From NCBI GenBank assembly GCA_022825745.1, contig JAJDWF010000113.1, forward strand, positions 26,400 through 90,399: a DNA stretch of 64,000 nt. Direction: 5' to 3'. The notes below the pieces were generated by a model that saw nothing but the letters and a program-made list of their open reading frames with translations, searched no databases and was not told where the DNA came from. The translations under genes were made by a program, and so were the position numbers. This stretch comes from Dehalococcoidia bacterium (GTDB lineage: Bacteria > Chloroflexota > Dehalococcoidia > Lucifugimonadales > UBA3495). This document shows positions 5,943-36,833 of the stretch, one piece after another; within the stretch, counting starts at the first letter, position 1; each line of letters starts with the position of its first letter.

Positions 5943-6233
5943 TTAATAAGGGTGCCCCGGCGGTGGGACAGTTTGCCACCATACCGCGCATCTGGCGACG
6001 GTATTGGCCGGTAGAGAGGCTTCATGCCCCATTGGTCCCAGTGGGAGACGTAGCAGTCCTTGAGGACGTGTTCGGCGTGGATCTGTGCCGTCGGCCTGCT
6101 CTATTTGCTCTTCGGTATGCTTTGGTTGAAGGCTCTCGCTTCCCACGAACTGCGCGCAGGCTGTGGTGATGCTGAACACTGCCAGGGTAGTTGCGACGTT
6201 GCGGATGGATTGCCGCCCGGCCCAGCATATCAC
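5943..6233 (-). CDS. Possible small secreted protein or lipoprotein
   Basis: Signal-like N-terminus SIRNVATTLAVFSITTAC. Ends 11 nt before the membrane-protein gene. No homology recognised. Confidence 0.25.
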   Translation of the reverse strand: MICWAGRQSIRNVATTLAVFSITTACAQFVGSESLQPKHTEEQIEQADGTDPRRTRPQGLLRLPLGPMGHEASLPANTVARCAVWWQTVPPPGHPY

Positions 6234-6282
6234 GGCAAGCTACCGCAGCGTCCGCGCCCGGCATGGGCCGGCGGCTATGGCG

Positions 6283-6288
6283 TATAAT
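6283..6288 (+). promoter_or_regulatory. -10 hexamer TATAAT
   Basis: Perfect TATAAT in GC-rich DNA, 32 nt upstream of ATG 6320. Confidence 0.3.
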
Positions 6289-6319
6289 GCCGGCCACCAC
6301 CCAACAAAGGAGAACCCCC

Positions 6320-6844
6320 ATGCCCCGAGTAGCCTTAGACCTGGAACAGAAAGACGACCTCGCCGTGATCAAGTCCGACGGCTGGCGCGTGGCGCAGGGT
6401 CTCGAACCCGGCGAGCCCAACCAGGGCCTGGTCGCCGAGAAGCGCGGCAGCGACGCCCGCCTGCCCGACTACGACGATTCCGGCTGGGAGAGCGGTGCCG
6501 ACTTCCAGCAGCGCTATTCCGTCGGCCTCACCTTCGCCTGGTATCGCCTGCGGTTCACCATGCCCGAGACCGTCAAGGGACAGGACGTGAACACCTGCCG
6601 CGTCTGGTTCGAGACCAACGTGGACAACTACGGTGAGGTATTCGTCGACGGCAAGATCGACCGCAACATCGGCGTCGTGACCGGCAACAACACGCCCAAG
6701 CGCGTCCTGGTGGAGGAGCCGGGTGAGCCGGGCAAGGAGCACGTCATCGCGGTGCTGGTCGCCAACGCCCCTCTGGGCGAGCCCGTAGGCGCCATCTTCA
6801 TGCGCTACGCCACCCTGGCCTTCGAGTCCCAGCCTCCGCAGTAA
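6320..6844 (+). CDS. Stand-alone galactose-binding-like (GH2 N-terminal-like jelly-roll) domain protein
   Basis: SD AAGGAG is 8 nt upstream of the ATG. DDSGWESGADF..GLTFAWYRLRFTMPETVKGQDV..VWFETNVDNYGEVFVDGK follows the sugar-binding-domain pattern of GH2 enzymes. Confidence 0.6.
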   Translation: MPRVALDLEQKDDLAVIKSDGWRVAQGLEPGEPNQGLVAEKRGSDARLPDYDDSGWESGADFQQRYSVGLTFAWYRLRFTMPETVKGQDVNTCRVWFETNVDNYGEVFVDGKIDRNIGVVTGNNTPKRVLVEEPGEPGKEHVIAVLVANAPLGEPVGAIFMRYATLAFESQPPQ

Positions 6845-6853
6845 GCAAGGGTG

Positions 6854-7669
6854 ATGGCCGCCATGACCAAAACCACTTGCGACCCCCGCGCGCTGACCGT
6901 CGCGCAAGCCGTACACGAACGGCTGTGGTGCCAGGCCACTATCCTGTTCGGTTCCCGTGCTAGAGGAGACTTCGAGGAGCATAGCTCCGACATCGACATC
7001 ATGCTGCTCAATCCGGGAATGCCGGACCAACACTACAAAGATCGGGCTGCCGAATGGGCTGAGGGAATTGCTCGGGCCATCTATGAATACCCGGTGACGG
7101 TACAGTTGGTATGGCGCACTACGGAGGATTTCCGGCGGCGGCGGCGCTACGTGAACAGTGTGGAAACTCGCGCAGTGCATGATGGAGTCCTCATGGCAAG
7201 AGACCCGAAACGGCATGGTTCCACATACTATGAGGACGAAGAAACGGAGTGCGAGTACGATTGGATGAACTACAACAACCGGCTGTTTCATGCCGAATCG
7301 CATCTCGACTTGTTCAACACGGCCATTGAGACCGGTAAGAACGACTTGATGATAGGACAGCAGGCTCAAGCCGCGCTGGAGCATGGCATGAAAGCCCTGC
7401 TCGAAGCCCACGGCGTCAGATACCAGCGCACCCACAATATCGGTCATCTGCTGGGCCGCATCCGACAGGTTGACCCCGAACTGCGTGAGCTTTCGCTCGG
7501 CATCCCACCGGACATCTACTCCGCGTATGCCGGTGAGCAGGAATACGAGGAAGAAGCGAGAACACAGCCGCTCCTCACCGACCAGCTCGACTACCGGACG
7601 CTAACCGTTGCCGACGCCCAGCGCATCATCGACCGCGCCCGCGAAGTGCGGCAAGGCCGTACTGACTAG
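6854..7669 (+). CDS. Fused minimal nucleotidyltransferase (MNT) + HEPN domain protein
   Basis: N-terminus has [17 protein letters not shown] (GSx2RG and DxD NTase motifs). C-terminus has [27 protein letters not shown] (HEPN R-x5-H). Lower-GC patch. Start could be 6851, 6854 or 6863. Confidence 0.8.
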
Positions 7670-7710
7670 CGCCGCAACCCCGGTATCAACCCACCTCTGG
7701 AGGCATAACC

Positions 7711-9234
7711 ATGGCCACCCGCTCTTTCGCCGGCAACGTCAACGCGCCGGACTTCCCTGCCAGCGTCGAATGGATCAACACCGACCGCCCCCTGAGCATG
7801 GCCGACCTGCGCGGCAAGGTGGTGATCCTCGACTTCTGGACCTACTGTTGAATCAACTGCGTGCATGTGTTTCCGCAGTTGCGGAAAATGGAAGAGAAGT
7901 ATCCGGACGAGCTGGTGGTCATAGGCGTCCATTCCGCCAAGTTCCCCAACGAGAAGTACGCCGACAACGTGCTGCTGGCCGCCCAGCGCTACGAGCTGAA
8001 GCACCCCATCGTCAACGACGCCGAGTTCGAAGTGTGGCGGCAGTACGCCTGCCGCGCCTGGCCCACGCTGATGTTCGTTGACCCGGAGGGCAAGGTAATC
8101 GGCAAGCACGAGGGCGAGCTGCCCTACGAGGCGTTCGACGACCTGCTGGGCCGCATGATCGCCGAGTTCGACGAGCAGGGCATCATCGACCGCCGCGACC
8201 TGGGCCTCACGCCGGAGGCGGTGGAGGAAACCGCGCTGGCCTTTCCCGGCAAAGCGCTGGCCGACGGCCCGGGCAACCGCCTGTTCATCGCCGACACCAA
8301 CCACAACCGCATCGTCATCACCGATCTGGACGGCCAGGTGCAGGCCGTCGTCGGTTCCGGCGCGGAGGACTTCGCGGACGGCGACTACGCCACCGCCGCC
8401 TTCAACCACCCCCAGGGCATGGAACTGGTGGGCGATGTGCTGTACGTGGCCGACACCGAGAACCACGCCATCCGCCGGGTGGACCTCGCCGCCGGCATGG
8501 TGGACACCATCGCCGGCACCGGTCAGCAGGGACACGACCGCCGCGCCTCCGGCCCGGGCGCTCAGATCGCGCTCAGCAGCCCGTGGGACCTGGCGCACCA
8601 CGACGGCATCCTGTACATCGCCATGGCCGGCACCCACCAGCTATGGCGGCTGTCGCTGGCCGACGGCACGGTCTGTCCCCACGCCGGCACCGGCGGCGAG
8701 AACATCGACAACGGCCCGCTGGCCCAGGCGACGCTGGCCCAGCCCAGCGGCATCGTGGTCGGCAGTGACCGGGGCGGCAGTCCCATCCTCTACTTCGCCG
8801 ACTCCGAGACCAGCAGCGTGCGCAGCGCCGGCATCGACCCGGTCACCGGCCGCGTGGCGACGCTGGTGGGCATCGACCTGTTCGCGTTCGGCGACCGCGA
8901 CGGCGTGGAGCACAACGTCCGGTTGCAGCACCCCATCGGCATCGAGTGGCACGAAGGCGAGTTGTTCATCGCCGACACCTACAACCACAAGATCAAGAAG
9001 GTGCTGCCGCTTACCCGCTCGGTGCAGACCGTCCTGGGTTCCGGCGCCATGGGCCTGCACGACGGCGCCGGCAAGCTGGCGACCTTCAGCGAACCCAGCG
9101 GCCTGAGCTTCGCCGTCTTTGAGAACGGCCGGCAGCCCCTGCTCTACATCGCCGACACCAACAATCACGCCATCCGCGTCGCCGACTTCGAGGCCGACGA
9201 GGTGCGGACGCTGGAGATTACCGGCTTGTCTTGA
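7711..9234 (+). CDS. Thioredoxin-like + NHL-repeat protein (NHLRC2-like) with in-frame TGA at 7849-7851 (candidate selenocysteine, or a pseudogene)
   Basis: SD CTGGAGG precedes ATG 7711. Reads [59 protein letters not shown].., in the same frame as ORF 7861..9234. NHL repeats follow ([55 protein letters not shown]). Confidence 0.75.
7855..7880 (+). promoter_or_regulatory. Hairpin 4 nt downstream of the in-frame TGA (candidate bacterial SECIS)
   Basis: AACTGCG (7855-7861) pairs with CGCAGTT (7874-7880). 7-bp perfect stem with a 12-nt loop TGCATGTGTTTC. Confidence 0.4.
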
Positions 9235-10659: not shown

Positions 10660-11739
10660 TTACGCGGAGATGGCGGCCAGACCGCGCTCCTGGTCGTCGG
10701 TGATCAGGCGGTCGATGATCTCGTTGAGGCCGCCGTCCATCAGGCGCTGTATCCCGTGGGTGGACAGGCTGATCCGGTGGTCGGTGATGCGGTCCTGCGG
10801 GTAGTTGTAGGTGCGGATTTTCTCGCTGCGGTCGCCGCTCCCGATCTGTGCCTTGCGGTTGCTGGAAATCTCCGCCTGGTGGCGTTCCTGCTCGGCCGAG
10901 TACAGCCGGCTGCGCAGGATGGTCATGGCCTTGGACTTGTTCTTGTACTGCGAGCGTTCGTCCTGGCAGACCACCGTGATGCCCGTGGGTTCGTGCACAA
11001 TGCGCACGGCGGTCGCCACCTTGTTCACGTTCTGCCCGCCGTGTCCGCCGGCGTGGAATATGTCGATGCGCAGGTCGTCCTCTTTGATGTTGACCTCAAC
11101 CTCGTCGGCCTGGGGCAGCACGGCCACCGTGGCCGTCGAGGTGTGGATGCGGCCCTGGGCTTCGGTTTCGGGAACGCGCTGGACCCGGTGCACGCCGGCC
11201 TCGAACTTCAGCTTGCTGAAGGCGTTGCGCCCGTCCACGGAGAACGCGATGCGGCTGAACCCGCCCAGGTCGGAGGGATTGGAGTCGAGGATATCCACAT
11301 TCCAGCCCTGTTCCTGGGCGTAGCGTTGGTACATGCGGTAGAGGTCGGAAGCGAACAGCGACGCTTCCTGCCCGCCGGCGGCGGCGTGAATCTCCACGAT
11401 TACGTCGCGCTCGTCGTTGGGGTCTTTCGGCAGCAGCGCGATGCGCAGTTGCTGGGCCAGGTCGGAGAGGCGTACCTCCACGTCGTCCAGCTCCAGCTGG
11501 GCCATCTCGACCAGCTCGGGATCGCCGCCCTCGGTGATCAGGGCGCGCAGGTCGGCTTGTTCCTCGGCCAGGTTGCGGTGTTCCACGTCGATGGCCACCA
11601 GGTCTTCCAGGCCGGAGCGTTCGCGGTTCAGCTCGCCCAATCGAGCGTAATCGGCGGCAACCTCGGGTTGGGCCATTTCCGCTTCAATGGCCCGATACCG
11701 CTCCACAATGGGCTGCAACTTGTCGAAAATGTCGGCCAT
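10660..11739 (-). CDS. prfA: Peptide chain release factor 1
   Basis: Start MADIFDKLQPIVERY.. (CAT 11737-11739). GGQ motif AGGHGGQNVNKV. RF1-type PxT region not checked in detail. Confidence 0.9.
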   Translation of the reverse strand: MADIFDKLQPIVERYRAIEAEMAQPEVAADYARLGELNRERSGLEDLVAIDVEHRNLAEEQADLRALITEGGDPELVEMAQLELDDVEVRLSDLAQQLRIALLPKDPNDERDVIVEIHAAAGGQEASLFASDLYRMYQRYAQEQGWNVDILDSNPSDLGGFSRIAFSVDGRNAFSKLKFEAGVHRVQRVPETEAQGRIHTSTATVAVLPQADEVEVNIKEDDLRIDIFHAGGHGGQNVNKVATAVRIVHEPTGITVVCQDERSQYKNKSKAMTILRSRLYSAEQERHQAEISSNRKAQIGSGDRSEKIRTYNYPQDRITDHRISLSTHGIQRLMDGGLNEIIDRLITDDQERGLAAISA

Positions 11740-11853
11740 TACGCTCACGCCTGCCTGAAAAAACTGCAAATCAGTATAGCCTACCTCTTGAAAACTCGGC
11801 AAGGGAGCGAGCCCGCTTGAAATAAATTTGAAACCTTTAATCAGCGAAGTTGG

Positions 11854-11866
11854 GGTACAATGTACC
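11854..11866 (+). promoter_or_regulatory. Perfect 6-1-6 palindrome GGTACAaTGTACC overlapping a TACAAT -10-like hexamer upstream of glnII
   Basis: Located 30 nt upstream of ATG 11896. Three TTGAAA hexamers lie at 11788, 11817 and 11828 in the same AT-rich divergent prfA/glnII intergenic region. Confidence 0.35.
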
Positions 11867-11895
11867 AAAGCAATCTCCATTTTTGAGGTTTTGGC

Positions 11896-12912
11896 ATGAG
11901 TTACAAGGCAGAATACATCTGGATCGACGGACAGCAGCCCACGGCCAAGCTACGGTCGAAGGCGAAGATCGTGCCCGATGGCGAGGACCCTCCCATTTGG
12001 GGTTTCGACGGCTCCAGCACCAACCAGGCCCCGGGCGAAAACTCCGACTGCGTGCTCAGCCCGGTGCTCGTGGTTCCCGACCCGATCCGCGGCGGCAACA
12101 ACAAGCTGGTCATGTGCGAAGTCCTGCTTACCGACATGACGCCGCACCCGTCCAACACCCGGGCGGGGTGCGCCGCCGCGGCCGCGCAGTACGCCTCGAT
12201 GGACTTCTGGTTCGGCATCGAGCAGGAATACACCTTCTTTGACGGCATCAAGCCCCTGGGCTGGCCGGACAACGGCTTCCCCGCGCCCCAGGGCGGCTAC
12301 TACTGCGGCGTCGGTTCCGACGAGGTGTTCGGTCGCCCCGTCGTCGAGCAGCACATGGACGCCTGTCTCGACGCCGGCCTGGAGATTTCCGGCATCAACG
12401 GCGAGGTCATGCCGGCGCAGTGGGAGTTCCAGATCGGCCCCATCGGCGCGCCGGCCGTGGGCGACCACCTGTGGCTGGCCCGCTGGCTGCTCTACCGCAT
12501 CGGCGAGGACGTTGAGACCGTTGACGGGCGCCGCGGCATCAGCGCCACGCTGGACCCCAAGCCCGTCAAGGGCGACTGGAACGGCGCCGGCGCCCACACC
12601 AACTTCTCCACCAACCGGATGCGCGAGGACTACGACGCCTGCGTCGCGGCCGCCGAAGCCCTCCAGACCCGCCACGACCTGCACATCGCCAACTACGGCG
12701 ACCGCATCGAAGAGCGGCTCACCGGCCTGCACGAGACCTGCTCCTACCGCGAGTTCCGCTACGGCGTGTCCGACCGGGGCGCCTCGGTTCGCATTCCGTG
12801 GCAGGTCGCGCGCGACGGCAAGGGCTACATCGAAGACCGGCGCCCCAACGCCAACTGCGACCCCTACACCGTCACCCGCCTCATCATCGAAACCGTAGGC
12901 GGCGCAGCCTAA
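11896..12912 (+). CDS. glnII: Glutamine synthetase type II
   Basis: 338 aa. MSYKAEYIWIDGQQPTAKLRSKAKI.. is the canonical GSII N-terminus. Confidence 0.9.
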   Translation: MSYKAEYIWIDGQQPTAKLRSKAKIVPDGEDPPIWGFDGSSTNQAPGENSDCVLSPVLVVPDPIRGGNNKLVMCEVLLTDMTPHPSNTRAGCAAAAAQYASMDFWFGIEQEYTFFDGIKPLGWPDNGFPAPQGGYYCGVGSDEVFGRPVVEQHMDACLDAGLEISGINGEVMPAQWEFQIGPIGAPAVGDHLWLARWLLYRIGEDVETVDGRRGISATLDPKPVKGDWNGAGAHTNFSTNRMREDYDACVAAAEALQTRHDLHIANYGDRIEERLTGLHETCSYREFRYGVSDRGASVRIPWQVARDGKGYIEDRRPNANCDPYTVTRLIIETVGGAA

Positions 12913-12955: not shown

Positions 12956-12983
12956 GTAGGGGCGGCCCACGCGTCGCCCCTAC
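12956..12983. terminator. Hairpin between convergent glnII and the SelA-like gene
   Basis: GTAGGGGCG (12956-12964) pairs with CGCCCCTAC (12975-12983). 9-bp stem with a 10-nt loop. Overlaps the TAG of the minus-strand gene. No clear U-tract. Confidence 0.4.
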
Positions 12984-14122
12984 GCGGTCAGGATCTCGCG
13001 CAGCCGCCGGATGACAACCTCGGTCTCGTCCTCGGTGAGGTTCAGCGGGTCCACCATCAGCTCGTCGGGCGGCCCCAGCTGCTGCAGGAATATCGGCGGG
13101 TCGCCCTGCTGTAGGGCGGCGCTCACCTCCCGGGGCGACGGCCCTGACCAGTCGTCGCCGCCGAAGTTGAGCACGGCGGTCGGGATCAGGTGGTTGAACC
13201 CGTCGTGCTCGAGGGTCACGCGCAGGCCCGGCACCTCCACCAGGCTGTCCACCACCCGCTGCGCCAGGGTGCGGTAGAACGCCATCTCCGCTGCCTCGTC
13301 CTCCTCCACGAACATGGACAGGGCGGTGACCAGCCCCAGGACCTCCTCCTTGGCGACCTTCATGGGCCGTCCGAGGAACTGCGCCGGGCTGGCGTTGGCC
13401 AGGGCGGCGTCGATGAGGTCGGCGCGCCCGCACAGGATGCCGGTGCCCTGCGGTCCGCGCACCCCCTTGCCGCCGCTGAAGATCACCATGTCCGCGCCGT
13501 CGTTCAGATAGCGGTGCAGGTTGGCCCGCGGCGGCAGCATGGACGCGGCGTCCACGATGACCGGCACGTCGTGGGCGTGGGCGATCTCACAGACCTGGTC
13601 CAGCGGCAGCATGCGCCGGCTGGTGTAAGGCGCGCACAGGTAGGCCACGGCGGCGGTGCGCTCGTTGATGGCCGCCTCCATCTCCCACGGGTGGCTGTAC
13701 AGGTAGTTGCCCACCTCGACGATCCTGGCGCCGGCGGCCCGGTAGGCGTGGTCGTAAGGAAACCGGTGCATGGTCTGGATGATGATCTCGTTCTTCATCC
13801 CGTCGGTGTCCGGCAGGCGGTGCATCTGCGCCGGGTCGCTGCCGGCGATGCAGGCCGCCGCCTGTAGCAGCAGCCCGCCGGCCGCGCCGCTACTGACCAT
13901 GGCGGCCTCCGCGCCCACCAGCCGGGCAATCTCCTCGCCGGCCCTCCGGTTCAGCTCGTCGATGTTGACCATGACGCGGGATGCGCCGGCCATCTGCTCC
14001 AGCACCTCGGGCCGGGTGCGGGTGCCGCCGAGCCGGGTCACCGAGCCGGAAGCGTTGATGATGGAGGTGACGCCTAGGCTGCGGTAAGCCTGTTCGGCGT
14101 CGGTAATGTTCTGCTGGGTCAA
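12980..14122 (-). CDS. SelA-family (DgaE-like) PLP-dependent enzyme
   Basis: 380 aa. VIFSGGKGVRGPQGTGIL resembles the SelA lysine loop FSGDKLLGGPQ. Lacks the N-terminal domain of genuine SelA. Confidence 0.7.
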   Translation of the reverse strand: MTQQNITDAEQAYRSLGVTSIINASGSVTRLGGTRTRPEVLEQMAGASRVMVNIDELNRRAGEEIARLVGAEAAMVSSGAAGGLLLQAAACIAGSDPAQMHRLPDTDGMKNEIIIQTMHRFPYDHAYRAAGARIVEVGNYLYSHPWEMEAAINERTAAVAYLCAPYTSRRMLPLDQVCEIAHAHDVPVIVDAASMLPPRANLHRYLNDGADMVIFSGGKGVRGPQGTGILCGRADLIDAALANASPAQFLGRPMKVAKEEVLGLVTALSMFVEEDEAAEMAFYRTLAQRVVDSLVEVPGLRVTLEHDGFNHLIPTAVLNFGGDDWSGPSPREVSAALQQGDPPIFLQQLGPPDELMVDPLNLTEDETEVVIRRLREILTA

Positions 14123-14245
14123 AGGAACCTCCCTGTGCGGGGCGACGGTAGTTGCGCAGGATTATAGCAAGGGACGGCAGTTGCACTATGGTAAGATTTC
14201 CGCGCTGTTCAAACTCGCCATGCGCACAAACTTGGAGGTAACAAC

Positions 14246-17805: not shown

Positions 17806-18177
17806 ATGAGCGCGCCGAAAATGGAAATGACACCCTTGGAATACGTGGACGCCTCCAAGCGTGAGCAGGCGGCCGGCAATCATATCAAGGCCGCGGCGCT
17901 GATGTGGCAGGCGACCCAGGCCACCTTCGCCGCGCTCGCTGACGCGCACGGCGTGGAGCTCAAGAGCCTGGACGAAGACGATCTGATTATGCTGGCCAGA
18001 GCGTTGGAAGCGGACGGCTCTGTGCCCAAGTGGCGCTACAGAGGGGGCCTTTCTCCGGGTTCTCTGCTAAAAGACCACGCTGAAATGGAAGTGTTGGAGA
18101 GTTATCAACTGGACTTGGCTTACGAAACCGCTGAGCAGTTCATCCGGGGGTGCTTTGACAACCGATCATCCCCCTGA
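17806..18177 (+). CDS. PaREP1-like helical protein, type A (cassette 1, first gene)
   Basis: ..YVDASKREQAAGNHIKAAALMWQATQATFAALADAHG.. aligns with 57142..57546 (..YLDAAAADYVAGDLKGSSANMWKASELAATAVAKSRG..). Confidence 0.65.
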   Translation: MSAPKMEMTPLEYVDASKREQAAGNHIKAAALMWQATQATFAALADAHGVELKSLDEDDLIMLARALEADGSVPKWRYRGGLSPGSLLKDHAEMEVLESYQLDLAYETAEQFIRGCFDNRSSP

Positions 18178-30227: not shown

Positions 30228-31120
30228 CCGCCGCGCGTTACCTCCACGCCGGCCAGTTGCTCGATGAAGTGCAGGATGGCCGAGTGGTCGGCGTCCTGCT
30301 CGCCGTCGTTGATCAGCGAGCCCAGCATCTGCTGAACCAGGGCGGTCACCGGCAGCGGCACGTTGAGCTCGCCGGCGGTCTGCAAGACGTTGCGCAGGTC
30401 CTTCTGGTGCAGGCGGATGCGGAATCCGGCGCGGAAGTTGCGGTCCAGCATCATAGGCGCCTTGGCTTCCATCACCGCGCTGCCGGCCAGGCCGCCGCGG
30501 ATGGCGTTGAACACGCGCTCCGGGTCGACGCCGGCCTTCTGGGCCAGCACCATCGCCTCGCTGAGCGCCTCGATGTTGGCGGCCACGATGATCTGGTTGG
30601 CCAGCTTGGTGATGTTGCCGGCTCCCACGTCGCCGGTGAGTACCACGTTGCCGCCCACCACGTCCAGCACCGCCTTGCAATCGTCGAACACGCCCTCGTC
30701 GCCGCCCACCATCACGGCCAGGGTGCCGGCGATGGCCCCCGGCTCGCCGCCACTGACCGGCGCGTCCAGGAACTTCACGCCCTTCTCGTCGCAGGCCGCG
30801 CCGATCTTCTGGGACATGGACGGCGCGATGCTGCTCATGTCGATGATGACCGAGCCGGGTTCCGCGCCTTCCAGCACGCCCTCGGGTCCCAGGATGGCCC
30901 GCTCGGAGTCAGCCGAGTCGGGCAGCATGGTGATGGTGCGGACGTTGCCCGCCGCCGCGCCCGCCGGCGAGGATGCAGCCGTCGCGCCCTCCGTAGCCAG
31001 CTCCTCCATCGGCTCGCCCACGATGTCATAGACCGTAAGCTCGTAGCCGGCCGCCATCAGGTTGCGCGCCATCGGCTTGCCCATAATCCCCAGCCCGACG
31101 AATCCAATCCGCTCTGCCAT
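30224..31120 (-). CDS. NAD(P)-dependent 3-hydroxyisobutyrate/2-hydroxy-3-oxopropionate reductase family dehydrogenase
   Basis: MAERIGFVGLGIMGKPMARNL.. Rossmann start. 298 aa. Confidence 0.85.
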   Translation of the reverse strand: MAERIGFVGLGIMGKPMARNLMAAGYELTVYDIVGEPMEELATEGATAASSPAGAAAGNVRTITMLPDSADSERAILGPEGVLEGAEPGSVIIDMSSIAPSMSQKIGAACDEKGVKFLDAPVSGGEPGAIAGTLAVMVGGDEGVFDDCKAVLDVVGGNVVLTGDVGAGNITKLANQIIVAANIEALSEAMVLAQKAGVDPERVFNAIRGGLAGSAVMEAKAPMMLDRNFRAGFRIRLHQKDLRNVLQTAGELNVPLPVTALVQQMLGSLINDGEQDADHSAILHFIEQLAGVEVTRGG

Positions 31121-31308
31121 TGCATATCCTCCGTTCGTTGGTTACCGTTCCGCGCGCGGCGGCTCGGCCGTATATTCGTATAGCAACAGCATTATACCCG
31201 CAATGCGACTCTAATCGGCTTATCGTAGCGTCTCAGATTGAAATCCACGGGTTCGAACGCGGCTTACAAGAGCCGCGCTTGAGTTCGCTGTATCCACCCT
31301 TAGCGGCT

Positions 31309-31515
31309 CTACGTCGGGGTCCAAAATTTCTCAACTTCAATCAGAGTGCAACCCCGGTCTTTAGCTATGAGCTTGCACGATTCGATGCAGGCACGGTAAT
31401 CTGCCTCACTCAATCCCCCAATACTCCTGAATGACCGCAAGCCTTTAATGATATGCGGGGATCCACGGAACTCGATCCGTAGGTTTGGGCCTACCCGGCC
31501 CGCTAGACCCCCCAC
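31309..31515 (-). CDS. Hypothetical small protein or gene fragment
   Basis: 68-aa ORF (..GLSEADYRACIESCKLIAKDRGCTLIEVEKFW). No motif recognised. Confidence 0.25.
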   Translation of the reverse strand: MGGLAGRVGPNLRIEFRGSPHIIKGLRSFRSIGGLSEADYRACIESCKLIAKDRGCTLIEVEKFWTPT

Positions 31516-31577
31516 CCAGTAGGGAGTGAGGCCGGGGGAGTTGACATCAGGTCGGAAGCGTCGTGTAGCATGATGAT

Positions 31578-31745
31578 ATGTTTGCCGCAGTCATCACCGC
31601 TATCGGGGCCTCAACCGGGTTTACCGCCGTTCTCCTGTTGGAGCGGATGGCGGGCCACACTGGCTTTGGGTTTCTTGTCTTCTGTGCAGTTGTTGCTCTA
31701 GGCGGACTCGTCGCTTACGCTCTTTCCTTAGCCGGATATCCGTAA
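31578..31745 (+). CDS. Possible 55-aa two-TM peptide
   Basis: MFAAVITAIGASTGFTAVLLLERMAGHTGFGFLVFCAVVALGGLVAYALSLAGYP. TTGACA at 31541-31546 lies upstream. Mutually exclusive with the antisense ORF 31621..31839. Confidence 0.25.
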   Translation: MFAAVITAIGASTGFTAVLLLERMAGHTGFGFLVFCAVVALGGLVAYALSLAGYP

Positions 31746-31839
31746 TGAACCACATCATCAGGGAGCCCAAGCCGAGGGCTGCAATGCCCAAGGCTTGTAA
31801 GGCGGTGATGGTAACGGGATAATCTAGCCACACCTTCAA
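31621..31839 (-). CDS. Possible 72-aa single-TM protein
   Basis: ITALQALGIAALGLGSLMMWFI followed by a basic tail. Overlaps the plus-strand small ORF. Confidence 0.25.
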   Translation of the reverse strand: MKVWLDYPVTITALQALGIAALGLGSLMMWFITDIRLRKERKRRVRLEQQLHRRQETQSQCGPPSAPTGERR

Positions 31840-31869
31840 TCAACAACGCGGAGGAGACTATAAACCCTG

Positions 31870-32124
31870 CTACACGAGGCCGGCAGCGAGCGCGGCACGG
31901 GTCGCCTCCCCGTCGCCACAATATAAATCAGCGCACCGAGCGACAAGCTCCAGTGCGCTGTGAGTTCCTGATTGGAGCACGGCGTCCTCCGCGTCCTCGA
32001 ATGTTCTTGGTTGGTCCATCAGGGTCATAGGGACTGCCCCCAGTTGGGCGCGTTGGGTATAGTCTGGTGGTTGCGCCCACTCGTCCATAATAGTACATCT
32101 GCACCAAATGGTGCAATTGATCAA
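31870..32124 (-). CDS. Hypothetical small protein (possible fourth gene of the cassette)
   Basis: TTG start overlaps the upstream TGA (agTTGAtc). Alternative ATG at 32088. No motif recognised. Confidence 0.3.
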   Translation of the reverse strand: MINCTIWCRCTIMDEWAQPPDYTQRAQLGAVPMTLMDQPRTFEDAEDAVLQSGTHSALELVARCADLYCGDGEATRAALAAGLV

Positions 32125-32609
32125 CTCAATTTCCTGGACAGACTGTCCTTCAGTTTTTCTGTAATGATATAACCATCCCTGATCGAACGTTCTAGGACTG
32201 CTTTGACCTTTGGTGCTGAGTAGCGTTCTACATCACATAGGTCGATTGATTGAACCAGTTCGAAAATGTCGTTTGCTGTCAAATTCACAATATCGTGATG
32301 GAGGTCATTGGCCCCATGGTGTGGCGTCCCCCCGGGGGACTGGACCGCCTGTAGATTCATTTTACTAAGCAGGTCGGCCTCGATGACCGTATAATCAAAA
32401 TTAGAGAGATTCTTTCGGCCAGCGGCCAACCCAGCCACGACTTGCTGAATCTCATCTTCAGAATCGACCAAGTACACGGAAAGCTTATTAGATTTTGTGT
32501 CAAAATCGCCGAGAGCATCGCCTTGCCGGCTTGATGCTAGCCCTCCGGCCCACGAGGGATTGGACCAACGGCCTCGGCGCACCATCCTGAGGAACCCCGA
32601 CACCGGCAC
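32121..32609 (-). CDS. Hypothetical protein (cassette gene 3, 162 aa)
   Basis: GTG start overlaps the stop of gene 2 by 1 nt (TAGTG). ..DALGDFDTKSNKLSVYLVDSEDEIQQVVAGLAAG..GANDLHHDIVNLT.. No family recognised. Confidence 0.55.
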   Translation of the reverse strand: MPVSGFLRMVRRGRWSNPSWAGGLASSRQGDALGDFDTKSNKLSVYLVDSEDEIQQVVAGLAAGRKNLSNFDYTVIEADLLSKMNLQAVQSPGGTPHHGANDLHHDIVNLTANDIFELVQSIDLCDVERYSAPKVKAVLERSIRDGYIITEKLKDSLSRKLS

Positions 32610-33349
32610 TACCCATTACCACTAAATTGGTCGATGACCAATTTCAAGCCATCTCTTACCCACTCCTCGGCCTCCGAAGCATGGGCCGTTTTCAAAGCTG
32701 GTAGCACGGACGGGTCATCCAAGAATGATAGACCAAGACCAGCAGCATCCCGGATTCTGCTATCTGACGATTTGAGACTGTCCGTAAGCACGCGCAGACG
32801 CCTCTCACGAGAAGGTTCGTGTTCAATCAGCCCGAATTGCCGCAGAAGTTCCTCGCCTGTTTCGTTCTCGTTTTCCATCCGCAACAGAACGCGCTCCCAG
32901 GCAGCAACAGCCACCGGGCCGTAACTCACGACGGATTCATGGACGCGCGTTGCGAACTCGGAGTCCATGCCGTCCTCAAATCTTTCGTTTTCAGCATCGC
33001 GAACGAACAGCACAAACCGCCCTGCTAGTTCGTTTTCACACAGCAGTTCCTGTTCAATGCTATCAGCGGTGGAATTTCCCACAGGCTGGTCTAGCATGCG
33101 ATAAGTGCTGGAGGGGTCAGCGACAGCAGGCAGTATCTCTTTACCCATACGGGCAATAGCCCACGCATCCCATAGTGCAACACCGTCTTCAGACCACAAT
33201 TGCTCTGGGTCATCCGCGTAATCCGGGTTTGTTGATGCCGGAGGCACGAATCGTCCGCGTATGACTTCACCTCCAAGCCAGAAGTACCCCTGACGTAGCG
33301 CAGTCATATCAAACGCAGCAGAGATTGTCGATGTAGTGGCAGTGGTCAT
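32609..33349 (-). CDS. Hypothetical protein with C-terminal HEAT-like repeat (cassette gene 2, 246 aa)
   Basis: ATGA overlap with gene 1. C-terminal SSDSRIRDAAGLGLSFLDDPSVLPALKTA resembles a PBS-lyase/HEAT repeat. Confidence 0.6.
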   Translation of the reverse strand: MTTATTSTISAAFDMTALRQGYFWLGGEVIRGRFVPPASTNPDYADDPEQLWSEDGVALWDAWAIARMGKEILPAVADPSSTYRMLDQPVGNSTADSIEQELLCENELAGRFVLFVRDAENERFEDGMDSEFATRVHESVVSYGPVAVAAWERVLLRMENENETGEELLRQFGLIEHEPSRERRLRVLTDSLKSSDSRIRDAAGLGLSFLDDPSVLPALKTAHASEAEEWVRDGLKLVIDQFSGNG

Positions 33350-34128
33350 GCTACGTCCCCCTCGTGAGCTATCTCCAAGGCCATTTCCATGAGCTCGGAA
33401 AGGACATCTTTGGCTTTGTCAGCCGGGATGCTTCTGCTTGCATCAACATGGGCGGTGTTGATGTCTAGTTGCAAACTCGCAGCGAATTGTATCCTGCTCC
33501 CTGATGCCACGGGACTGCCGTCCCCTACTCGACCAAATGAAACGGTTTGCCCTTGTGCTATTGACCAAGTGGCCAATCGATTGATCCATATCCCGGAAGA
33601 AACTTGACTCCGGCGTCTTCGATTAACTTGGAATGAGAAGTCTGGAGCATCAAGGCCTTCAAATTGGAATCTTGGGAGCGTGAGACTAAGCTTTGCGTAT
33701 GCCTCGGAAAGGCTAGGCGCGGGGGCGAGGAGCAATGCACCAACCGCTAGACGATTGATGCTCGGAGTCATGTTGATCAAGAGTTGGCTGGCTGGGGACA
33801 ATTCCCGCATAGCCTGCTGGTACCCCCTTTCAAACTTGTTCCATACGTCAGTACTTCCTGGCGGCGGAATATTGACCGGTTGCGCGAGGATATCAGTCCG
33901 TTCGGCGCGAATGTTCATAGTCCATTGCGTATCGCCAATTTGTCCTCCAACCACCCTGACACCCTCAAGATTCTTGGTATCATCCTGTTGAGGGGTGGAG
34001 CCGAAAGCTTCCGTCCAATAACCGTGGATTTTATCCCCCAAGTCGATGGCGGAATGGAATATGGTAATGCGTAGTTGTTGAGCCAGCCATTCGATATTCG
34101 GCTTAGCCCTTTCAGGTGTAGTTGTCAT
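33346..34128 (-). CDS. Hypothetical protein (cassette gene 1, 260 aa)
   Basis: Long ORF in the low-GC islet. No catalytic or binding motif recognised. Confidence 0.6.
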   Translation of the reverse strand: MTTTPERAKPNIEWLAQQLRITIFHSAIDLGDKIHGYWTEAFGSTPQQDDTKNLEGVRVVGGQIGDTQWTMNIRAERTDILAQPVNIPPPGSTDVWNKFERGYQQAMRELSPASQLLINMTPSINRLAVGALLLAPAPSLSEAYAKLSLTLPRFQFEGLDAPDFSFQVNRRRRSQVSSGIWINRLATWSIAQGQTVSFGRVGDGSPVASGSRIQFAASLQLDINTAHVDASRSIPADKAKDVLSELMEMALEIAHEGDVA

Positions 34129-34196
34129 AATCTTAATTCATTGATGACAGTGTCCATACGCCGGCTCAAGCCAAGCGGCTACTTGCTTGCCGCGAT

Positions 34197-34226
34197 GCTA
34201 TAGCCTATGAGCGCATATCCTGTCAA
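34197..34226 (-). promoter_or_regulatory. Sigma70-like promoter TTGACA-N18-TATAGC for the cassette
   Basis: Minus-strand TTGACA (34226-34221) and TATAGC (34202-34197), about 70 nt upstream of ATG 34128. Confidence 0.35.
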
Positions 34227-34308
34227 CCCTTTGTCCCCATTGTAACACCCACCGTGCCTAGGGCGATAATGGGATGATCCTATTCCATTTGCTTTGACAA
34301 GATATGTC

Positions 34309-34620
34309 TCACCCGTTCCGGAAGAGACTTTCCAGCGTTTGAGTCTCGTCGCCTTCCACCAGTGCCCATTCGTCGCTGTCAAGGAAACTTCCCTCGAACT
34401 TCCAGTCCGGCTTTCCGCCAGGCAGGTTTTCGCTGGCATAAAGGCAGCAGGCGCGTATGTCCTCAACGGACAGTTGGGGATAGTGCTTTATGATGTCGCC
34501 CTCTTTTGTTCCGCCAGCCAACAGGTAGAGGACGAAGGAAACGGAGATTCGAGTTCCCTTCACCCGAGGCTTGCCCATCAGAAAATCCCGGTCGGATACG
34601 ATGCGCTCCATCAAGTCCAT
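34309..34620 (-). CDS. DUF433-domain protein (antitoxin-like) with atypical C-terminal extension
   Basis: SD GGGAGG precedes the start. DFLMGKPRVKGTRISVSFVLYLLAGGTKEGDIIKHYPQLSVEDIRACCLYA is the DUF433 pattern. About 35 extra acidic residues at the C-terminus. Confidence 0.7.
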   Translation of the reverse strand: MDLMERIVSDRDFLMGKPRVKGTRISVSFVLYLLAGGTKEGDIIKHYPQLSVEDIRACCLYASENLPGGKPDWKFEGSFLDSDEWALVEGDETQTLESLFRNG

Positions 34621-34748
34621 AATGCAACCTCCCAGCCCTGCCGGAACGGGGCTGTGCGTACCTCATATCCTAACACGCTATCAATTCCACAAGGTTCCAC
34701 CGGCTTTGACCGCGCCTGAATACCCTGGCGGGCTAAAGCCACCGCCCG

Positions 34749-36786: not shown

Positions 36787-36817
36787 CCAACACCCGCCAA
36801 ATCCGCCGCTCCCCCAA

Positions 36818-36826
36818 TGCTATAAT
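36818..36826 (+). promoter_or_regulatory. Extended -10 TGcTATAAT, 7 nt upstream of the mutS2 ATG (leaderless-type arrangement)
   Basis: tgctataat ttcgccc ATG. No SD fits between the -10 and the start codon. Confidence 0.45.
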
Positions 36827-36833
36827 TTCGCCC

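What the first reader, a model, noticed from the sequence alone, without database searches (positions are those of the whole stretch)
7711..9234. In-frame TGA replaces the first Cys of the CxxC redox motif in a thioredoxin-NHL protein: candidate selenoprotein with a downstream hairpin
Reading from ATG 7711 (SD CTGGAGG upstream) gives ..[25 protein letters not shown].. in the same frame as the long ORF 7861..9234. Homologues of this family (NHLRC2-like) as I recall them carry FWTYCCINC. The TGA (7849-7851) therefore falls on the N-terminal Cys of the C-I-N-C redox pair, giving U-x-x-C, the classic placement of Sec in thiol oxidoreductases. Four nt downstream is a perfect 7-bp hairpin (AACTGCG/CGCAGTT, 7855-7880) with a 12-nt G/U-containing loop, which suits a bacterial SECIS. 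TGA is a normal stop elsewhere in the window (for example 18175-18177 and 54122-54124), so a reassigned genetic code is unlikely.
Basis: partly seen in the sequence, partly recalled or inferred. Interest (0 to 1): 0.75.

Follow-up and report, generated by a model that had tools for sequence, protein, structure and literature searches.

The report
Selenocysteine form of NHLRC2/SOQ1-type oxidoreductase

Summary
ATG 7711 reads in frame through TGA 7849-7851 (FWTYC-TGA-INC) to the stop at 9232-9234. The product is a 507-residue thioredoxin-like + NHL-propeller protein, homologous to plant SOQ1 (E 3e-127) and human NHLRC2 (E 7e-118).

The selenoprotein reading is strongly supported:
- The TGA sits at this column in all 80 related Dehalococcoidia/SAR202 species genomes fetched, in 118 of 120 metagenome contigs, and in 11 of 11 divergent relatives (45-56% identity).
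- Cys forms from other phyla have FWTYCCINC at the same place.
- The sequence upstream of the TGA evolves like coding sequence.
- It is the only TGA in the window with coding signal on both sides, and TGA ends other genes there.

The likely SECIS is UUUCCGC-AGUU-GCGGAAA at 7870-7887. Its five core codons are the only ones in the gene, apart from the UGA and the codon before it, with no synonymous change across 81 orthologues. It shows compensatory changes in distant relatives and meets all four published bacterial SECIS criteria.

No Sec machinery lies in the window. Published data report it, or a large set of selenoproteins, in two genomes that carry the orthologue.

Verdict: a real, mis-annotated selenoprotein and a new member of a known kind. 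Interest is moderate, because it marks the NHLRC2 Cys-90 position as redox-catalytic.

The parts
7699..7703 (+). Shine-Dalgarno-like GGAGG, 7 nt upstream of the start codon
   Evidence: Read directly from the sequence.
7711..9234 (+). Complete selenoprotein gene: 507 codons including one Sec codon, with TGA 9232-9234 as the true stop. Databases hold only truncated products of 438-471 aa that start after the Sec codon.
   Evidence: Translation. 118 of the 120 best database homologues cover only 87-91% of the query. tblastn matches residues 1-506 across the TGA in 80 genomes. Codon-position variability upstream of the TGA is 0.136/0.088/0.327, against 0.134/0.064/0.290 downstream.
7741..8148 (+). 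Thioredoxin-like domain (residues about 11-146; Thioredoxin_8 / AhpC-TSA / Redoxin)
   Evidence: Pfam hits. PDB alignments to SOQ1 7DJJ, NHLRC2 6GC1 and DipZ.
7846..7848 (+). Cys46 codon directly before Sec (the 'CU' dipeptide). It is always TGT in the 81 SAR202-type orthologues. Elsewhere it can be TGC, or the residue can be Gly or Ala.
   Evidence: Zero synonymous variation. TGC in 50 of 120 metagenome contigs. Gly or Ala in L205 and L207-L210.
7849..7851 (+). In-frame UGA read as selenocysteine (Sec47). This is the N-terminal, attacking position of the U-I-N-C redox motif and corresponds to Cys-90 of human NHLRC2.
   Evidence: TGA at this column in 80/80 genomes, in 118/120 metagenome contigs and in 11/11 divergent representatives. 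It aligns with the second Cys of CCINC in Cys forms.
7858..7860 (+). Cys50, the resolving cysteine of the UxxC motif
   Evidence: Invariant Cys in all orthologues. Corresponds to NHLRC2 Cys-93.
7870..7887 (+). Proposed SECIS hairpin: 5' arm UUUCCGC (7870-7876), loop AGUU (7877-7880), 3' arm GCGGAAA (7881-7887). It encodes F-P-Q-L-R-K. The loop starts 25 nt after the UGA.
   Evidence: TTT CCG CAG TTG CGG are the only degenerate codons, apart from UGA and the codon before it, with zero synonymous variation among 245 conserved columns. It is the RNAalifold consensus. 100% of cells pair in 79 distinct sequences. In the 36-sequence set, 97% pair and 3 pairs change on both sides, with 0/500 shuffles reaching the covariation score. 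Free energy -9.5 kcal/mol, z = -3.98. Meets the bSECIS criteria quoted.
7855..7880 (+). It shares 7874-7880 with the hairpin above, so the two cannot form together. Not supported as the SECIS.
   Evidence: No compensatory change. Top pair broken in 49/79 and 27/36. Loop and spacing fall outside the bSECIS model.
8233..9228 (+). NHL-repeat beta-propeller domain (residues about 175-506). The protein ends directly after it, with no C-terminal domain.
   Evidence: Pfam NHL, E 4e-19. Aligns to the NHL domains of SOQ1 7DJM and NHLRC2 6G7W.

Best explanation
Window 7711-9234 is one gene for a cytoplasmic selenoprotein of 507 residues: a thioredoxin-like domain fused to an NHL beta-propeller, orthologous to the Trx-NHL core of plant SOQ1 and human NHLRC2.

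How the recoding works (inferred). Translation starts at ATG 7711. When UGA 7849-7851 reaches the ribosomal A site, the mRNA hairpin UUUCCGC-AGUU-GCGGAAA (7870-7887) recruits SelB carrying Sec-tRNA(Sec). The loop begins 25 nt downstream of the UGA and has G-U at loop positions 2-3. Selenocysteine is inserted instead of termination. The same 18 nt also encode Phe-Pro-Gln-Leu-Arg-Lys, so in Sec forms the RNA structure dictates this peptide; Cys forms in other phyla have I-P-D-L there.

How the protein works (inferred). Sec47 takes the N-terminal, solvent-exposed nucleophile position of the active-site motif (C-U-I-N-C here, C-C-I-N-C in Cys forms). Cys50 resolves it into a selenenylsulfide. The motif faces the cup of the propeller, which most likely holds the substrate. 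The enzyme is therefore most likely a reductase of a protein disulfide, or a relay for reducing oxidised residues, as reported for SOQ1.

Shown here: the conserved TGA, the Cys/TGA pairing, coding constraint on both sides, and the conserved, covarying hairpin. Inferred: actual Sec insertion, SelB binding, the substrate, and the physiological reductant.
For: - TGA conservation. TGA at the same column in 80/80 GTDB species genomes at 62-95% protein identity, in 118/120 metagenome contigs, and in 11/11 N-terminally truncated cluster representatives at 45-56% identity.
- Cys/TGA pairing. Cys homologues carry FWTYCCINC. Variants with FWTYGCINC show that the Cys aligned with Sec is the conserved one.
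- Coding constraint. Codon-position variability upstream of the TGA equals that downstream. No internal start is conserved: codon 51 is ATG in only 45/81, and elsewhere it encodes Val, Ala, Leu or Ile.
- Standard code. This is the only TGA in the window with coding GC3 on both sides. About ten window genes, including this one, end in TGA.
- Hairpin 7870-7887. Five consecutive codons have zero synonymous variation, against 0 of the other 238 conserved degenerate columns. It is the RNAalifold consensus. Compensatory changes are U-A to C-G (L203, L206), U-A to G-C (L205), G-C to C-G with Arg to Gly (L210), and C-G to G-C (L212). L207 has a redesigned 9-bp stem with its GUU loop at the same offset. 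All four bSECIS criteria of PMC13188914 are met.
- Sec use in orthologue-bearing genomes. SAR202 bin87 (the genome of L025) has SelA, SelB and SelD COGs (PMC5649159 Table S4). Dehalococcoidia UBA1141 (the genome of L073) is listed with 49 selenoprotein genes (PMC13326102). A deiodinase-like TGA gene lies within 10 kb in L003, L006 and L007.
- Homology. SOQ1 7DJJ E 3e-127 and NHLRC2 6GC1 E 7e-118.
Against: - No selA, selB, selD or tRNA-Sec lies in the 64 kb window or in the 10-kb flanks of the 80 loci. The rest of this genome could not be read.
- The SelA-like gene at 12983-14161 belongs to the DgaE family and is not SelA.
- Within the SAR202 clade the hairpin is invariant, so covariation rests on about ten distant sequences.
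- One Cys form (P0107/L081) keeps the identical hairpin, so the hairpin is not strictly tied to TGA. A recent Sec-to-Cys change would explain this.
- Rfam holds no matching model.
- There is no protein-level evidence of Sec.
- NHLRC2 showed no insulin-reductase activity (PMC6107167), so the catalytic role of the motif is still debated.
Confidence: 0.87

Rival explanations
1. The gene is a selenoprotein, but the SECIS is the first reader's hairpin (7855-7861 / 7874-7880), or the two overlapping hairpins alternate.
For: It is a perfect 7-bp stem in the window and the minimum-free-energy fold there (-11.1 kcal/mol). Six of its seven pairs are kept in all orthologues, through C-G to U-G changes.
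Against: - Its 5' arm is the Asn-Cys codons of the active site, so it is conserved for protein reasons.
- The only variation is C/T opposite G, which does not discriminate between models.
- The top pair is broken in 49/79 and 27/36 sequences, and no compensatory change is seen.
- It does not explain why 7870-7873 and 7881-7886 are invariant.
- It is disrupted in L207 and L210, where the other hairpin is kept.
- Its 12-14-nt loop and 10-nt spacing fall outside the bSECIS model.
Confidence: 0.06
2. UGA 7849 is decoded as something other than selenocysteine: Cys, Trp or Gly, through a suppressor or special tRNA, or through hairpin-stimulated read-through.
For: Sequence analysis alone cannot tell which residue is inserted. 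No Sec machinery was seen in the DNA available. The hairpin could in principle stimulate read-through.
Against: - The UGA sits exactly on the catalytic Cys of a CxxC motif, the classic Sec/Cys pair position.
- The hairpin fits the SelB-type bSECIS model, including G-U in the loop.
- Orthologue-bearing genomes have SelA/SelB/SelD or many selenoproteins.
- TGA is an ordinary stop elsewhere in the window.
Confidence: 0.04
3. The TGA is a true stop. The locus makes a 46-residue peptide and, separately, a protein of about 450 residues from an internal start. This is how it is annotated in all databases.
For: Gene callers produce products of 438-471 aa starting at various codons after the TGA. GTG 7861 and ATG 7888 exist in the window.
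Against: - This would split the CxxC motif and the thioredoxin fold.
- The upstream 46 codons are under the same purifying selection and stay in the same frame in every orthologue.
- No internal start codon or Shine-Dalgarno site is conserved.
- Cys forms are continuous.
Confidence: 0.02
4. The gene is a pseudogene, or the TGA is a sequencing or assembly error.
For: A single in-frame stop in a single assembly could be an error. One contig (L167) has TAA at this column and one (L115) is disrupted upstream.
Against: The same TGA appears in more than 200 independent assemblies from sponges, seawater, lakes and soils, with intact reading frames on both sides.
Confidence: 0.01

Closest known systems
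NHLRC2 (human; PDB 6GC1/6G7W) and SOQ1 lumenal region (Arabidopsis; PDB 7DJJ)
   Same: Thioredoxin-like (Trx8-type) domain followed by an NHL beta-propeller, aligned end to end (E 7e-118 and 3e-127). The active-site context is identical, ILDFWTYC-x-INC. The cis-Pro region (RAWPT) is conserved.
   Different: - Sec replaces the second Cys of CCINC (NHLRC2 Cys-90).
- The window protein has no C-terminal beta-stranded domain, although some Sec forms (L211, L212) do have one, with a Cys pair.
- It has no HAD domain, no transmembrane helix and no signal sequence, so it is probably cytoplasmic.
- No Sec form of this family is mentioned in the NHLRC2 or SOQ1 papers read.
Known bacterial UxxC thioredoxin-fold selenoproteins: Prx-like thiol:disulfide oxidoreductase (PF00578), thiol-disulfide isomerase-like (cd02966, TlpA-like), Redoxin family protein (PF08534)
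   Same: Sec at the N-terminal position of a UxxC motif in a TlpA/Redoxin-type thioredoxin fold. Matches PF00578, PF08534 and PF13905. Abundant Cys homologues exist. A short hairpin SECIS lies just downstream.
   Different: Those families are listed as single-domain proteins. None of the 119 families in the 2026 inventory is described with an NHL propeller or linked to NHLRC2/SOQ1. Short marine metagenome reads of this gene may already have been counted under 'Prx-like' or 'Trx-like' in 2005 and 2008. This could not be checked, because the representative accessions are not available here.
Bacterial SECIS elements (E. coli fdhF type; bSECISearch consensus)
   Same: A stem-loop inside the coding region directly after UGA, with a 4-nt apical loop carrying G-U, a 7-bp stem, 25-nt spacing and -9.5 kcal/mol. 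All are within the published limits.
   Different: It is very short and lacks an obvious lower stem or bulged U. Its sequence is almost invariant over a large clade. The G-U sits at +30/+31 from the U of UGA, compared with +21/+22 in the neighbouring deiodinase-like gene of the same organisms.
DipZ / DsbD C-terminal thioredoxin domain (PDB 2HYX)
   Same: The closest non-NHL structural relative of the Trx domain (E 2e-23). It has an S-C-I-N-C active site.
   Different: DipZ is a membrane-anchored, extracytoplasmic electron relay with no NHL propeller and no Sec.

Membership tests
Bacterial selenoprotein gene (Sec-UGA plus SECIS) | In-frame UGA aligned with a conserved (catalytic) Cys in homologues | tested here: met
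   TGA 7849-7851 aligns with the second Cys of FWTYCCINC in about 110 Cys forms and in SOQ1 and NHLRC2. The TGA is conserved in 80/80, 118/120 and 11/11 sequences.
Bacterial selenoprotein gene (Sec-UGA plus SECIS) | Protein-coding constraint continues in the same frame on both sides of the UGA | tested here: met
   Variability by codon position is 0.136/0.088/0.327 upstream and 0.134/0.064/0.290 downstream. GC3 is 0.93 upstream and 0.82 downstream.
Bacterial selenoprotein gene (Sec-UGA plus SECIS) | bSECIS model: 3-9-nt apical loop, 4-16-bp upper stem, G in the first two loop positions, 16-37 nt between UGA and the loop, MFE <= -7.5 kcal/mol (PMC13188914) | tested here: met
Hairpin 7870-7887 has loop AGUU (4 nt, G then U at positions 2-3), a 7-bp stem, 25-nt spacing and -9.5 kcal/mol.
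Bacterial selenoprotein gene (Sec-UGA plus SECIS) | The hairpin is conserved beyond what the protein requires, with compensatory changes | tested here: met
   Zero synonymous variation in 5 consecutive codons, against 0 of the other 238 columns. 3 pairs change on both sides, and 0/500 shuffles reach the covariation score. Further variants in L207 and L212.
Bacterial selenoprotein gene (Sec-UGA plus SECIS) | selA, selB, selC (tRNA-Sec) and selD present in the same genome | not testable with these tools
Indirect support: bin87 (L025) has SelA/SelB/SelD COGs; UBA1141 (L073) has 49 selenoprotein genes; a deiodinase-like TGA gene lies near the orthologue in L003, L006 and L007.
Bacterial selenoprotein gene (Sec-UGA plus SECIS) | Selenium demonstrated in the protein (75Se labelling or mass spectrometry) | not testable with these tools
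   This needs an experiment. The organisms are uncultured.
NHLRC2 / SOQ1 Trx-NHL family | Trx8-type thioredoxin-like domain with a CC(I/V)NC motif and the adjacent cis-Pro | tested here: met
   Pfam Thioredoxin_8, E 1e-13. The motif is C-U-I-N-C. RAWPT is invariant and aligns with SOQ1 and NHLRC2. The motif is described in PMC6107167.
NHLRC2 / SOQ1 Trx-NHL family | NHL-repeat beta-propeller directly after the Trx domain | tested here: met
   Pfam NHL, 68 bits. Residues 174-506 align with the propeller-only structures 7DJM and 6G7W. The number of blades was not counted on a model.
NHLRC2 / SOQ1 Trx-NHL family | C-terminal beta-stranded domain with a conserved Cys pair | tested here: not met
   The window protein ends at residue 507, right after the propeller. 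The domain is present in other Sec forms (L211, L212) and in many bacterial Cys forms. The window protein is therefore the two-domain bacterial architecture.
Previously listed UxxC Trx-fold selenoprotein families (Prx-like, thiol-disulfide isomerase-like, Redoxin family) | Same family as the published representative sequences | not tested
   The representative accessions (WP_010940744.1, MGB1650493.1, HEU0032618.1) cannot be fetched here. The domain hits overlap, but none of those families is described with an NHL domain.
Reassigned genetic code (UGA as a sense codon genome-wide) | UGA frequent inside genes and not used as a stop | tested here: not met
   There is only one in-frame TGA with coding signal on both sides in 64 kb. 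About ten genes end in TGA. RF1 is present; RF2 was not seen in the window.

The most novel reading that the evidence does not exclude
This is an unrecognised selenoprotein family: the selenocysteine form of the NHLRC2/SOQ1 enzyme. It is widespread in SAR202 Dehalococcoidia of oceans, sponges and lakes, and in a soil clade, and every database entry seen here is truncated.

Nature replaced the residue equivalent to NHLRC2 Cys-90 with Sec many times over. That marks this residue as the catalytic redox nucleophile of a family whose biochemical function is unresolved; NHLRC2 is the gene mutated in the fatal childhood FINCA disease and was reported inactive in the classical reductase assay. It also provides a naturally hyper-reactive two-domain version (Trx-NHL only) for trapping substrates.
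Probability: 0.5. Interest if true: 0.6.

Novelty: new member of a known kind. Interest (0 to 1): 0.48.

Why it matters
1. Annotation. Hundreds of Dehalococcoidia/SAR202 genomes and metagenome contigs carry this gene truncated by about 50 residues, losing the active site. 118 of the 120 best database hits are truncated this way. A family-specific model would fix this.

2. Biochemistry. Sec/Cys pairs are a reliable marker of catalytic redox cysteines. Finding one in the CCINC motif argues that the NHLRC2/SOQ1 thioredoxin-like domain performs real redox chemistry. This bears on the debate over NHLRC2, which showed no insulin-reductase activity, and on the recent proposal that SOQ1 relays electrons for methionine-sulfoxide reduction.

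3. RNA and protein co-constraint. The SECIS fixes the peptide FPQLRK in Sec forms, whereas Cys forms have IPDL. One Cys form still carries the relic hairpin.

4. Ecology. It adds to the evidence that SAR202 and sponge-symbiont Chloroflexi are rich in selenoproteins.

Tried and rejected
- Rfam. Nothing at gathering thresholds on the whole window and only noise at permissive thresholds around the site. Rfam has no usable bacterial SECIS model.
- tRNA-Sec. ARAGORN found none in the window or in the 80 loci.
- Sec machinery in the window. Pfam and NCBIfam scans of about 45 window ORFs found no SelA, SelB or SelD. The apparent SelA hit at 12983-14161 is a DgaE-family ammonia lyase.
- Folding energy of the 55-nt region. 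It is not distinctive (z = -0.25), so energy alone could not decide between the hairpins. Comparative data were needed.
- Covariation within the SAR202 set. There is none, because the hairpin is invariant there. It appeared only after DNA was fetched for truncated representatives from the 50%-identity library.
- N-terminal protein query. It returned only short fragments under 190 aa. These were useful for the Cys motif but not for architecture.
- BSepDB supplementary tables. They are not held in the library, so I could not check whether this gene is among the 49 selenoproteins of UBA1141.
- Other in-frame TGAs in the loci. Most of the 39 hits look like antisense or adjacent-gene artefacts. Only the deiodinase-like gene was convincing.
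- The hairpin elsewhere in the window. A search with up to 3 mismatches found only the site itself.
- Bias to note. The metagenome scan required the exact hairpin sequence, so the 118/120 figure shows coupling of the hairpin with TGA, not the frequency of Sec forms.
Full report
**1. The observation**

The sequence is as described.
- GGAGG lies at 7699-7703, 7 nt before ATG 7711.
- Translating 7711-9234 gives MATRSFAG...[24 protein letters not shown]...EITGLS*. The only internal stop is TGA 7849-7851, and the terminal stop is TGA 9232-9234.
- AACTGCG (7855-7861) and CGCAGTT (7874-7880) are complementary around a 12-nt loop.
- TGA is an ordinary stop elsewhere, for example at 18175-18177 and 54122-54124.
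- The window is 64.6% G+C. With GC3 as a coding signal, this is the only TGA in 64 kb with coding-like sequence on both sides in the same frame: GC3 is 0.93 upstream and 0.82 downstream.

**2. What the protein is**

With Cys in place of the stop, the 507-residue product matches Thioredoxin_8, AhpC-TSA and Redoxin over residues 11-146, and NHL repeats after that.

Against solved structures it aligns end to end with the lumenal Trx-NHL region of Arabidopsis SOQ1 (7DJJ, E 3e-127) and with human NHLRC2 (6GC1, E 7e-118). The motif [12 protein letters not shown] is identical in both. In NHLRC2 this is the CCINC motif, residues 89-93. It lies at the N-terminus of helix alpha-1, in the cleft facing the cup of the propeller (PMC6107167). 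Sec47 therefore corresponds to NHLRC2 Cys-90, and Cys50 to Cys-93.

The window protein stops right after the propeller, so it lacks the C-terminal domain found in SOQ1 and NHLRC2. It has no signal peptide or membrane segment at its N-terminus; this is read from the sequence and is an inference.

**3. Is the TGA conserved?**

A search of the large protein collection gave a telling result. Of the best 120 homologues, down to 62% identity, 118 are 438-471 aa long and cover only 87-91% of the query. They begin at assorted codons just after the TGA: [30 protein letters not shown].

I fetched DNA for relatives from one genome per GTDB species. That gave 80 loci, all Dehalococcoidia, SAR202 or Chloroflexota MAGs, many from sponges.
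- Every one has TGA at the same column, within FWTYC-TGA-[IV]NC.
- tblastn aligns residues 1-506 across the stop.
- Variability by codon position in the 44 codons upstream of the TGA is 0.136/0.088/0.327. This is practically the same as downstream, 0.134/0.064/0.290, so the N-terminal 46 residues are under protein-level selection in this frame.
- No internal start is conserved. Codon 51 (GTG in the window) is ATG in 45 of 81 sequences, and in the rest encodes Val, Ala, Leu or Ile.

Cys forms from other phyla (Verrucomicrobia, Acidobacteria, Planctomycetes and others) have FWTYCCINCMH[IV]IPDL. In the rarer FWTYGCINC variants the first Cys of the pair is lost, while the one aligned with the TGA is kept.

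**4. Which hairpin?**

In a codon alignment of the 81 orthologues, 245 conserved columns have degenerate codons. Their mean synonymous entropy is 1.12 bits. Only seven columns show no synonymous variation at all:
- Cys46 (TGT),
- the TGA itself,
- five consecutive codons, TTT CCG CAG TTG CGG (7870-7884).

Together with the following AAA/AAG these form UUUCCGC-AGUU-GCGGAAA (7870-7887). Several of these codons are not the preferred ones in this G+C-rich gene. For example, Phe42 is TTC in 74 of 81 sequences, and Leu is mostly CTG.

RNAalifold returns exactly this hairpin as the consensus. All cells pair, and the only variation is U-A to U-G.

- Its 5' arm is the Asn-Cys codons of the active site.
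- Its only variation is C/T opposite G, which tells us nothing.
- Its top pair is broken in 49 of 79 sequences.

Because the hairpin is invariant in SAR202, I looked further out. An exhaustive search of 50%-identity cluster representatives listed about a dozen N-terminally truncated family members among roughly 75 full-length Cys forms. I fetched DNA for 11 of the truncated ones. All 11 have TGA at the same column. The residue before it is Cys, Gly or Ala. Each has a hairpin at the same place:

| Locus | Hairpin | Change relative to the window |
|---|---|---|
| L203, L206 | CUUCCGC-AGUU-GCGGAAG | U-A to C-G |
| L205 | CUGCCGC-AGUU-GCGGCGG | U-A to G-C |
| L210 | CUUCCCC-AGUU-GGGGAAG | G-C to C-G, changing Arg to Gly |
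| L212 | GUCGCGC-AGUU-GCGCCGG | C-G to G-C |
| L207 | GUUCGCUCC-GUU-GGAGCGGAU | different 9-bp stem encoding F-A-P-L-E-R-I, with GUU at the same offset from the UGA |

On a 36-sequence alignment, the hairpin at 7870-7887 has 97.2% of cells paired. Three pairs change on both sides (9 cells), and the covariation score is 0.166 against 0.100 +/- 0.013 in shuffles (0 of 500 reach it). The slid-register controls drop to 34-71% paired.

The published bacterial SECIS model (PMC13188914, Fig. 2 legend) sets four criteria:

|---|---|---|
| Apical loop of 3-9 nt | 4 nt (AGUU) | 12 nt (fails) |
| Upper stem of 4-16 bp | 7 bp | 7 bp |
| G in the first two loop positions, usually followed by G or U | G at position 2, then U | G at position 2 |
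| 16-37 nt between UGA and the loop | 25 nt | 10 nt (fails) |
| MFE <= -7.5 kcal/mol | -9.5 kcal/mol, z = -3.98 | -11.1 kcal/mol |

**5. Coupling of the hairpin with TGA**

I scanned metagenome contigs for AAYTGYNNNCAYNNNTTTCCGCAGTTGCGGAA.
- 118 have TGA at the Sec column.
- One has TAA and one is disrupted upstream.
- None has Cys.
- A large soil clade reads [27 protein letters not shown].

This scan required the hairpin, so it shows coupling, not prevalence.

One Cys form (P0107/L081, 57% identity, TGC at the column) retains the identical 18 nt. I read this as a recent Sec-to-Cys change with a relic SECIS.

Sec forms encode [FLIV]-P-Q-L-R-K here, while distant Cys forms encode I-P-D-L. The RNA element therefore appears to dictate this stretch of the protein.

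**6. Sec machinery**

The window holds no tRNA and no selA, selB or selD among about 45 ORFs scanned.
- The gene at 12983-14161 that touches the SelA Pfam model is a DgaE-family lyase. It scores 216 bits against that subfamily and 53 against selA, whose cut-off is 268.
- The release factor at 10663-11949 is RF1.

The rest of the genome is out of reach, so this defining feature is untested for this organism. Indirect evidence is good:
- SAR202 bin87 (MPNC00000000) is the genome of locus L025, whose orthologue is 89% identical. It is listed with COG1921 SelA (3 copies), COG3276 SelB (1) and COG0709 SelD (1) in Table S4 of PMC5649159.
- Dehalococcoidia bacterium UBA1141, the genome of L073, is among the ten bacteria with the most selenoprotein genes (49) in BSepDB (PMC13326102).
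- In L003, L006 and L007 a second in-frame-TGA gene lies within 10 kb. It reads AFGSYT-U-PPF, matches Pfam T4_deiodinase at E 1e-35, and has a GCGCUCA-GUC-UGAGCGC hairpin 13 nt after its UGA. Deiodinase-like proteins are an established bacterial selenoprotein family.

**7. Mechanism proposed**

Shown here: one continuous, selected reading frame, with a conserved UGA on the catalytic Cys position and a conserved, covarying hairpin 25 nt downstream.

Inferred from the established bacterial pathway (SelA, SelB, SelC, SelD, as summarised in PMC13188914): SelB carrying Sec-tRNA(Sec) binds the 7870-7887 hairpin and delivers Sec to UGA 7849.

Inferred from thioredoxin-fold chemistry and the NHLRC2 and SOQ1 structures: Sec47 is the exposed nucleophile and Cys50 resolves it to a selenenylsulfide. 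The motif faces the propeller cup, which docks the substrate.

A 2024 preprint reports that the SOQ1 Trx-like domain is redox-active and passes electrons to a Cys pair in its C-terminal domain. That pair gives methionine-sulfoxide-reductase activity towards the lipocalin LCNP (10.1101/2024.11.01.621559). The window protein lacks that domain, so it would act directly on a substrate or partner. Sec forms that have the extra domain, with a Cys pair, also exist (L211, L212). The physiological substrate and reductant are unknown.

Gene neighbourhood gives no clue to function. A hypothetical gene (6191-6844) is adjacent in 74 of 80 loci. A HEPN/nucleotidyltransferase gene is inserted between the two in the window and in 20 other loci. 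PrmC and RF1 follow downstream.

**8. Comparison with what is known, and novelty**

The kind is well known: a thioredoxin-fold UxxC selenoprotein with a canonical bacterial SECIS. The 2026 inventory of 119 prokaryotic selenoprotein families lists Prx-like thiol:disulfide oxidoreductase, thiol-disulfide isomerase-like (TlpA-like) and Redoxin family proteins with UxxC. It lists nothing with an NHL domain or any link to NHLRC2/SOQ1.
- Full-text searches for selenoprotein or selenocysteine together with NHL, NHLRC2 or SAR202 found no description.
- NCBIfam has no specific model.
- Every database entry seen is truncated.
- Short reads of the Trx part may have been counted among the 'Prx-like' or 'Trx-like' subfamilies in the Sargasso Sea and GOS surveys. 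I could not test this.

I therefore class it as a new member of a known kind, with about an even chance that the family as such is unreported.

**9. Verdict**

- Real feature: the selenoprotein reading is about 0.9 likely, and hairpin 7870-7887 as the SECIS about 0.85.
- Interest is moderate. A Sec/Cys pair in a thioredoxin fold will not surprise a selenoprotein specialist. It does give evolutionary evidence for redox catalysis at the CCINC motif of a family with unresolved function and a human disease link. It also exposes a systematic annotation error across an abundant ocean and sponge-symbiont lineage.

Noticed in passing
L003:21313, L006:17166, L007:13848 (+ strand; TGA positions): A second in-frame-TGA gene lies within 10 kb of the orthologue in three SAR202 genomes. 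It is a protein of about 250 aa with AFGSYT-U-PPF, matches Pfam T4_deiodinase at E 1e-35, and has a hairpin GCGCUCA-GUC-UGAGCGC starting 13 nt after the UGA. It is a deiodinase-like selenoprotein. The gene is absent from the window.
   Followed up: partly
window 31100-34700: Low-G+C island (48-59%, against 65-70% around it). It holds three tandem minus-strand ORFs (32121-32609, 32609-33349, 33346-34128) with no Pfam match apart from a weak HEAT hit. It may be horizontally acquired. Function unknown.
   Followed up: partly
window 6845-7669 (+) and 6191-6844 (+): A HEPN + nucleotidyltransferase gene sits directly upstream of the selenoprotein gene and has a relative in only 21 of 80 related loci (in at least one, L009, elsewhere on the opposite strand). 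It separates the selenoprotein gene from a conserved hypothetical gene (no Pfam or NCBIfam hit) that is its neighbour in 74 of 80 loci.
   Followed up: partly
window 12983-14161 (-): A PLP enzyme that hits the SelA Pfam model is really a DgaE-family (SelA-related) ammonia lyase. It could be mistaken for Sec machinery.
   Followed up: yes
L211:473-2218 and L212:1001-2698: These Sec forms of the same family have TGA at the same column and also carry an extra C-terminal domain of about 130 aa with a Cys-x7-Cys pair. It resembles the SOQ1/NHLRC2 C-terminal domain that the window protein lacks.
   Followed up: partly
L081:383-1876 (P0107): A Cys form (TGC at the Sec column, 57% identity) still carries the exact TTTCCGCAGTTGCGGAAA hairpin. 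This looks like a relic SECIS after a Sec-to-Cys change. A Thioredox_DsbH (YyaL-like) gene follows it.
   Followed up: partly
L167 and L115 (metagenome contigs): L167 has TAA instead of TGA at the Sec column. L115 has a disrupted reading frame just upstream of the INC codons. These may be decaying copies or assembly errors.
   Followed up: no
window 35962-36786 (+) and 36420-39284 (+): An Actinobacteria/Chloroflexi VLRF1-type release-factor-like gene (acVLRF1, E 1e-29) lies next to a MutS2/Smr gene. This pairing suggests ribosome rescue or quality control.
   Followed up: no
window 7846-7848: The Cys codon just before the UGA is TGT in all 81 SAR202-type orthologues, although TGC is the commoner Cys codon in this gene (65 of 81 at Cys50). 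In a soil clade it is TGC. This may be a clade-specific context effect on UGA recoding.
   Followed up: partly
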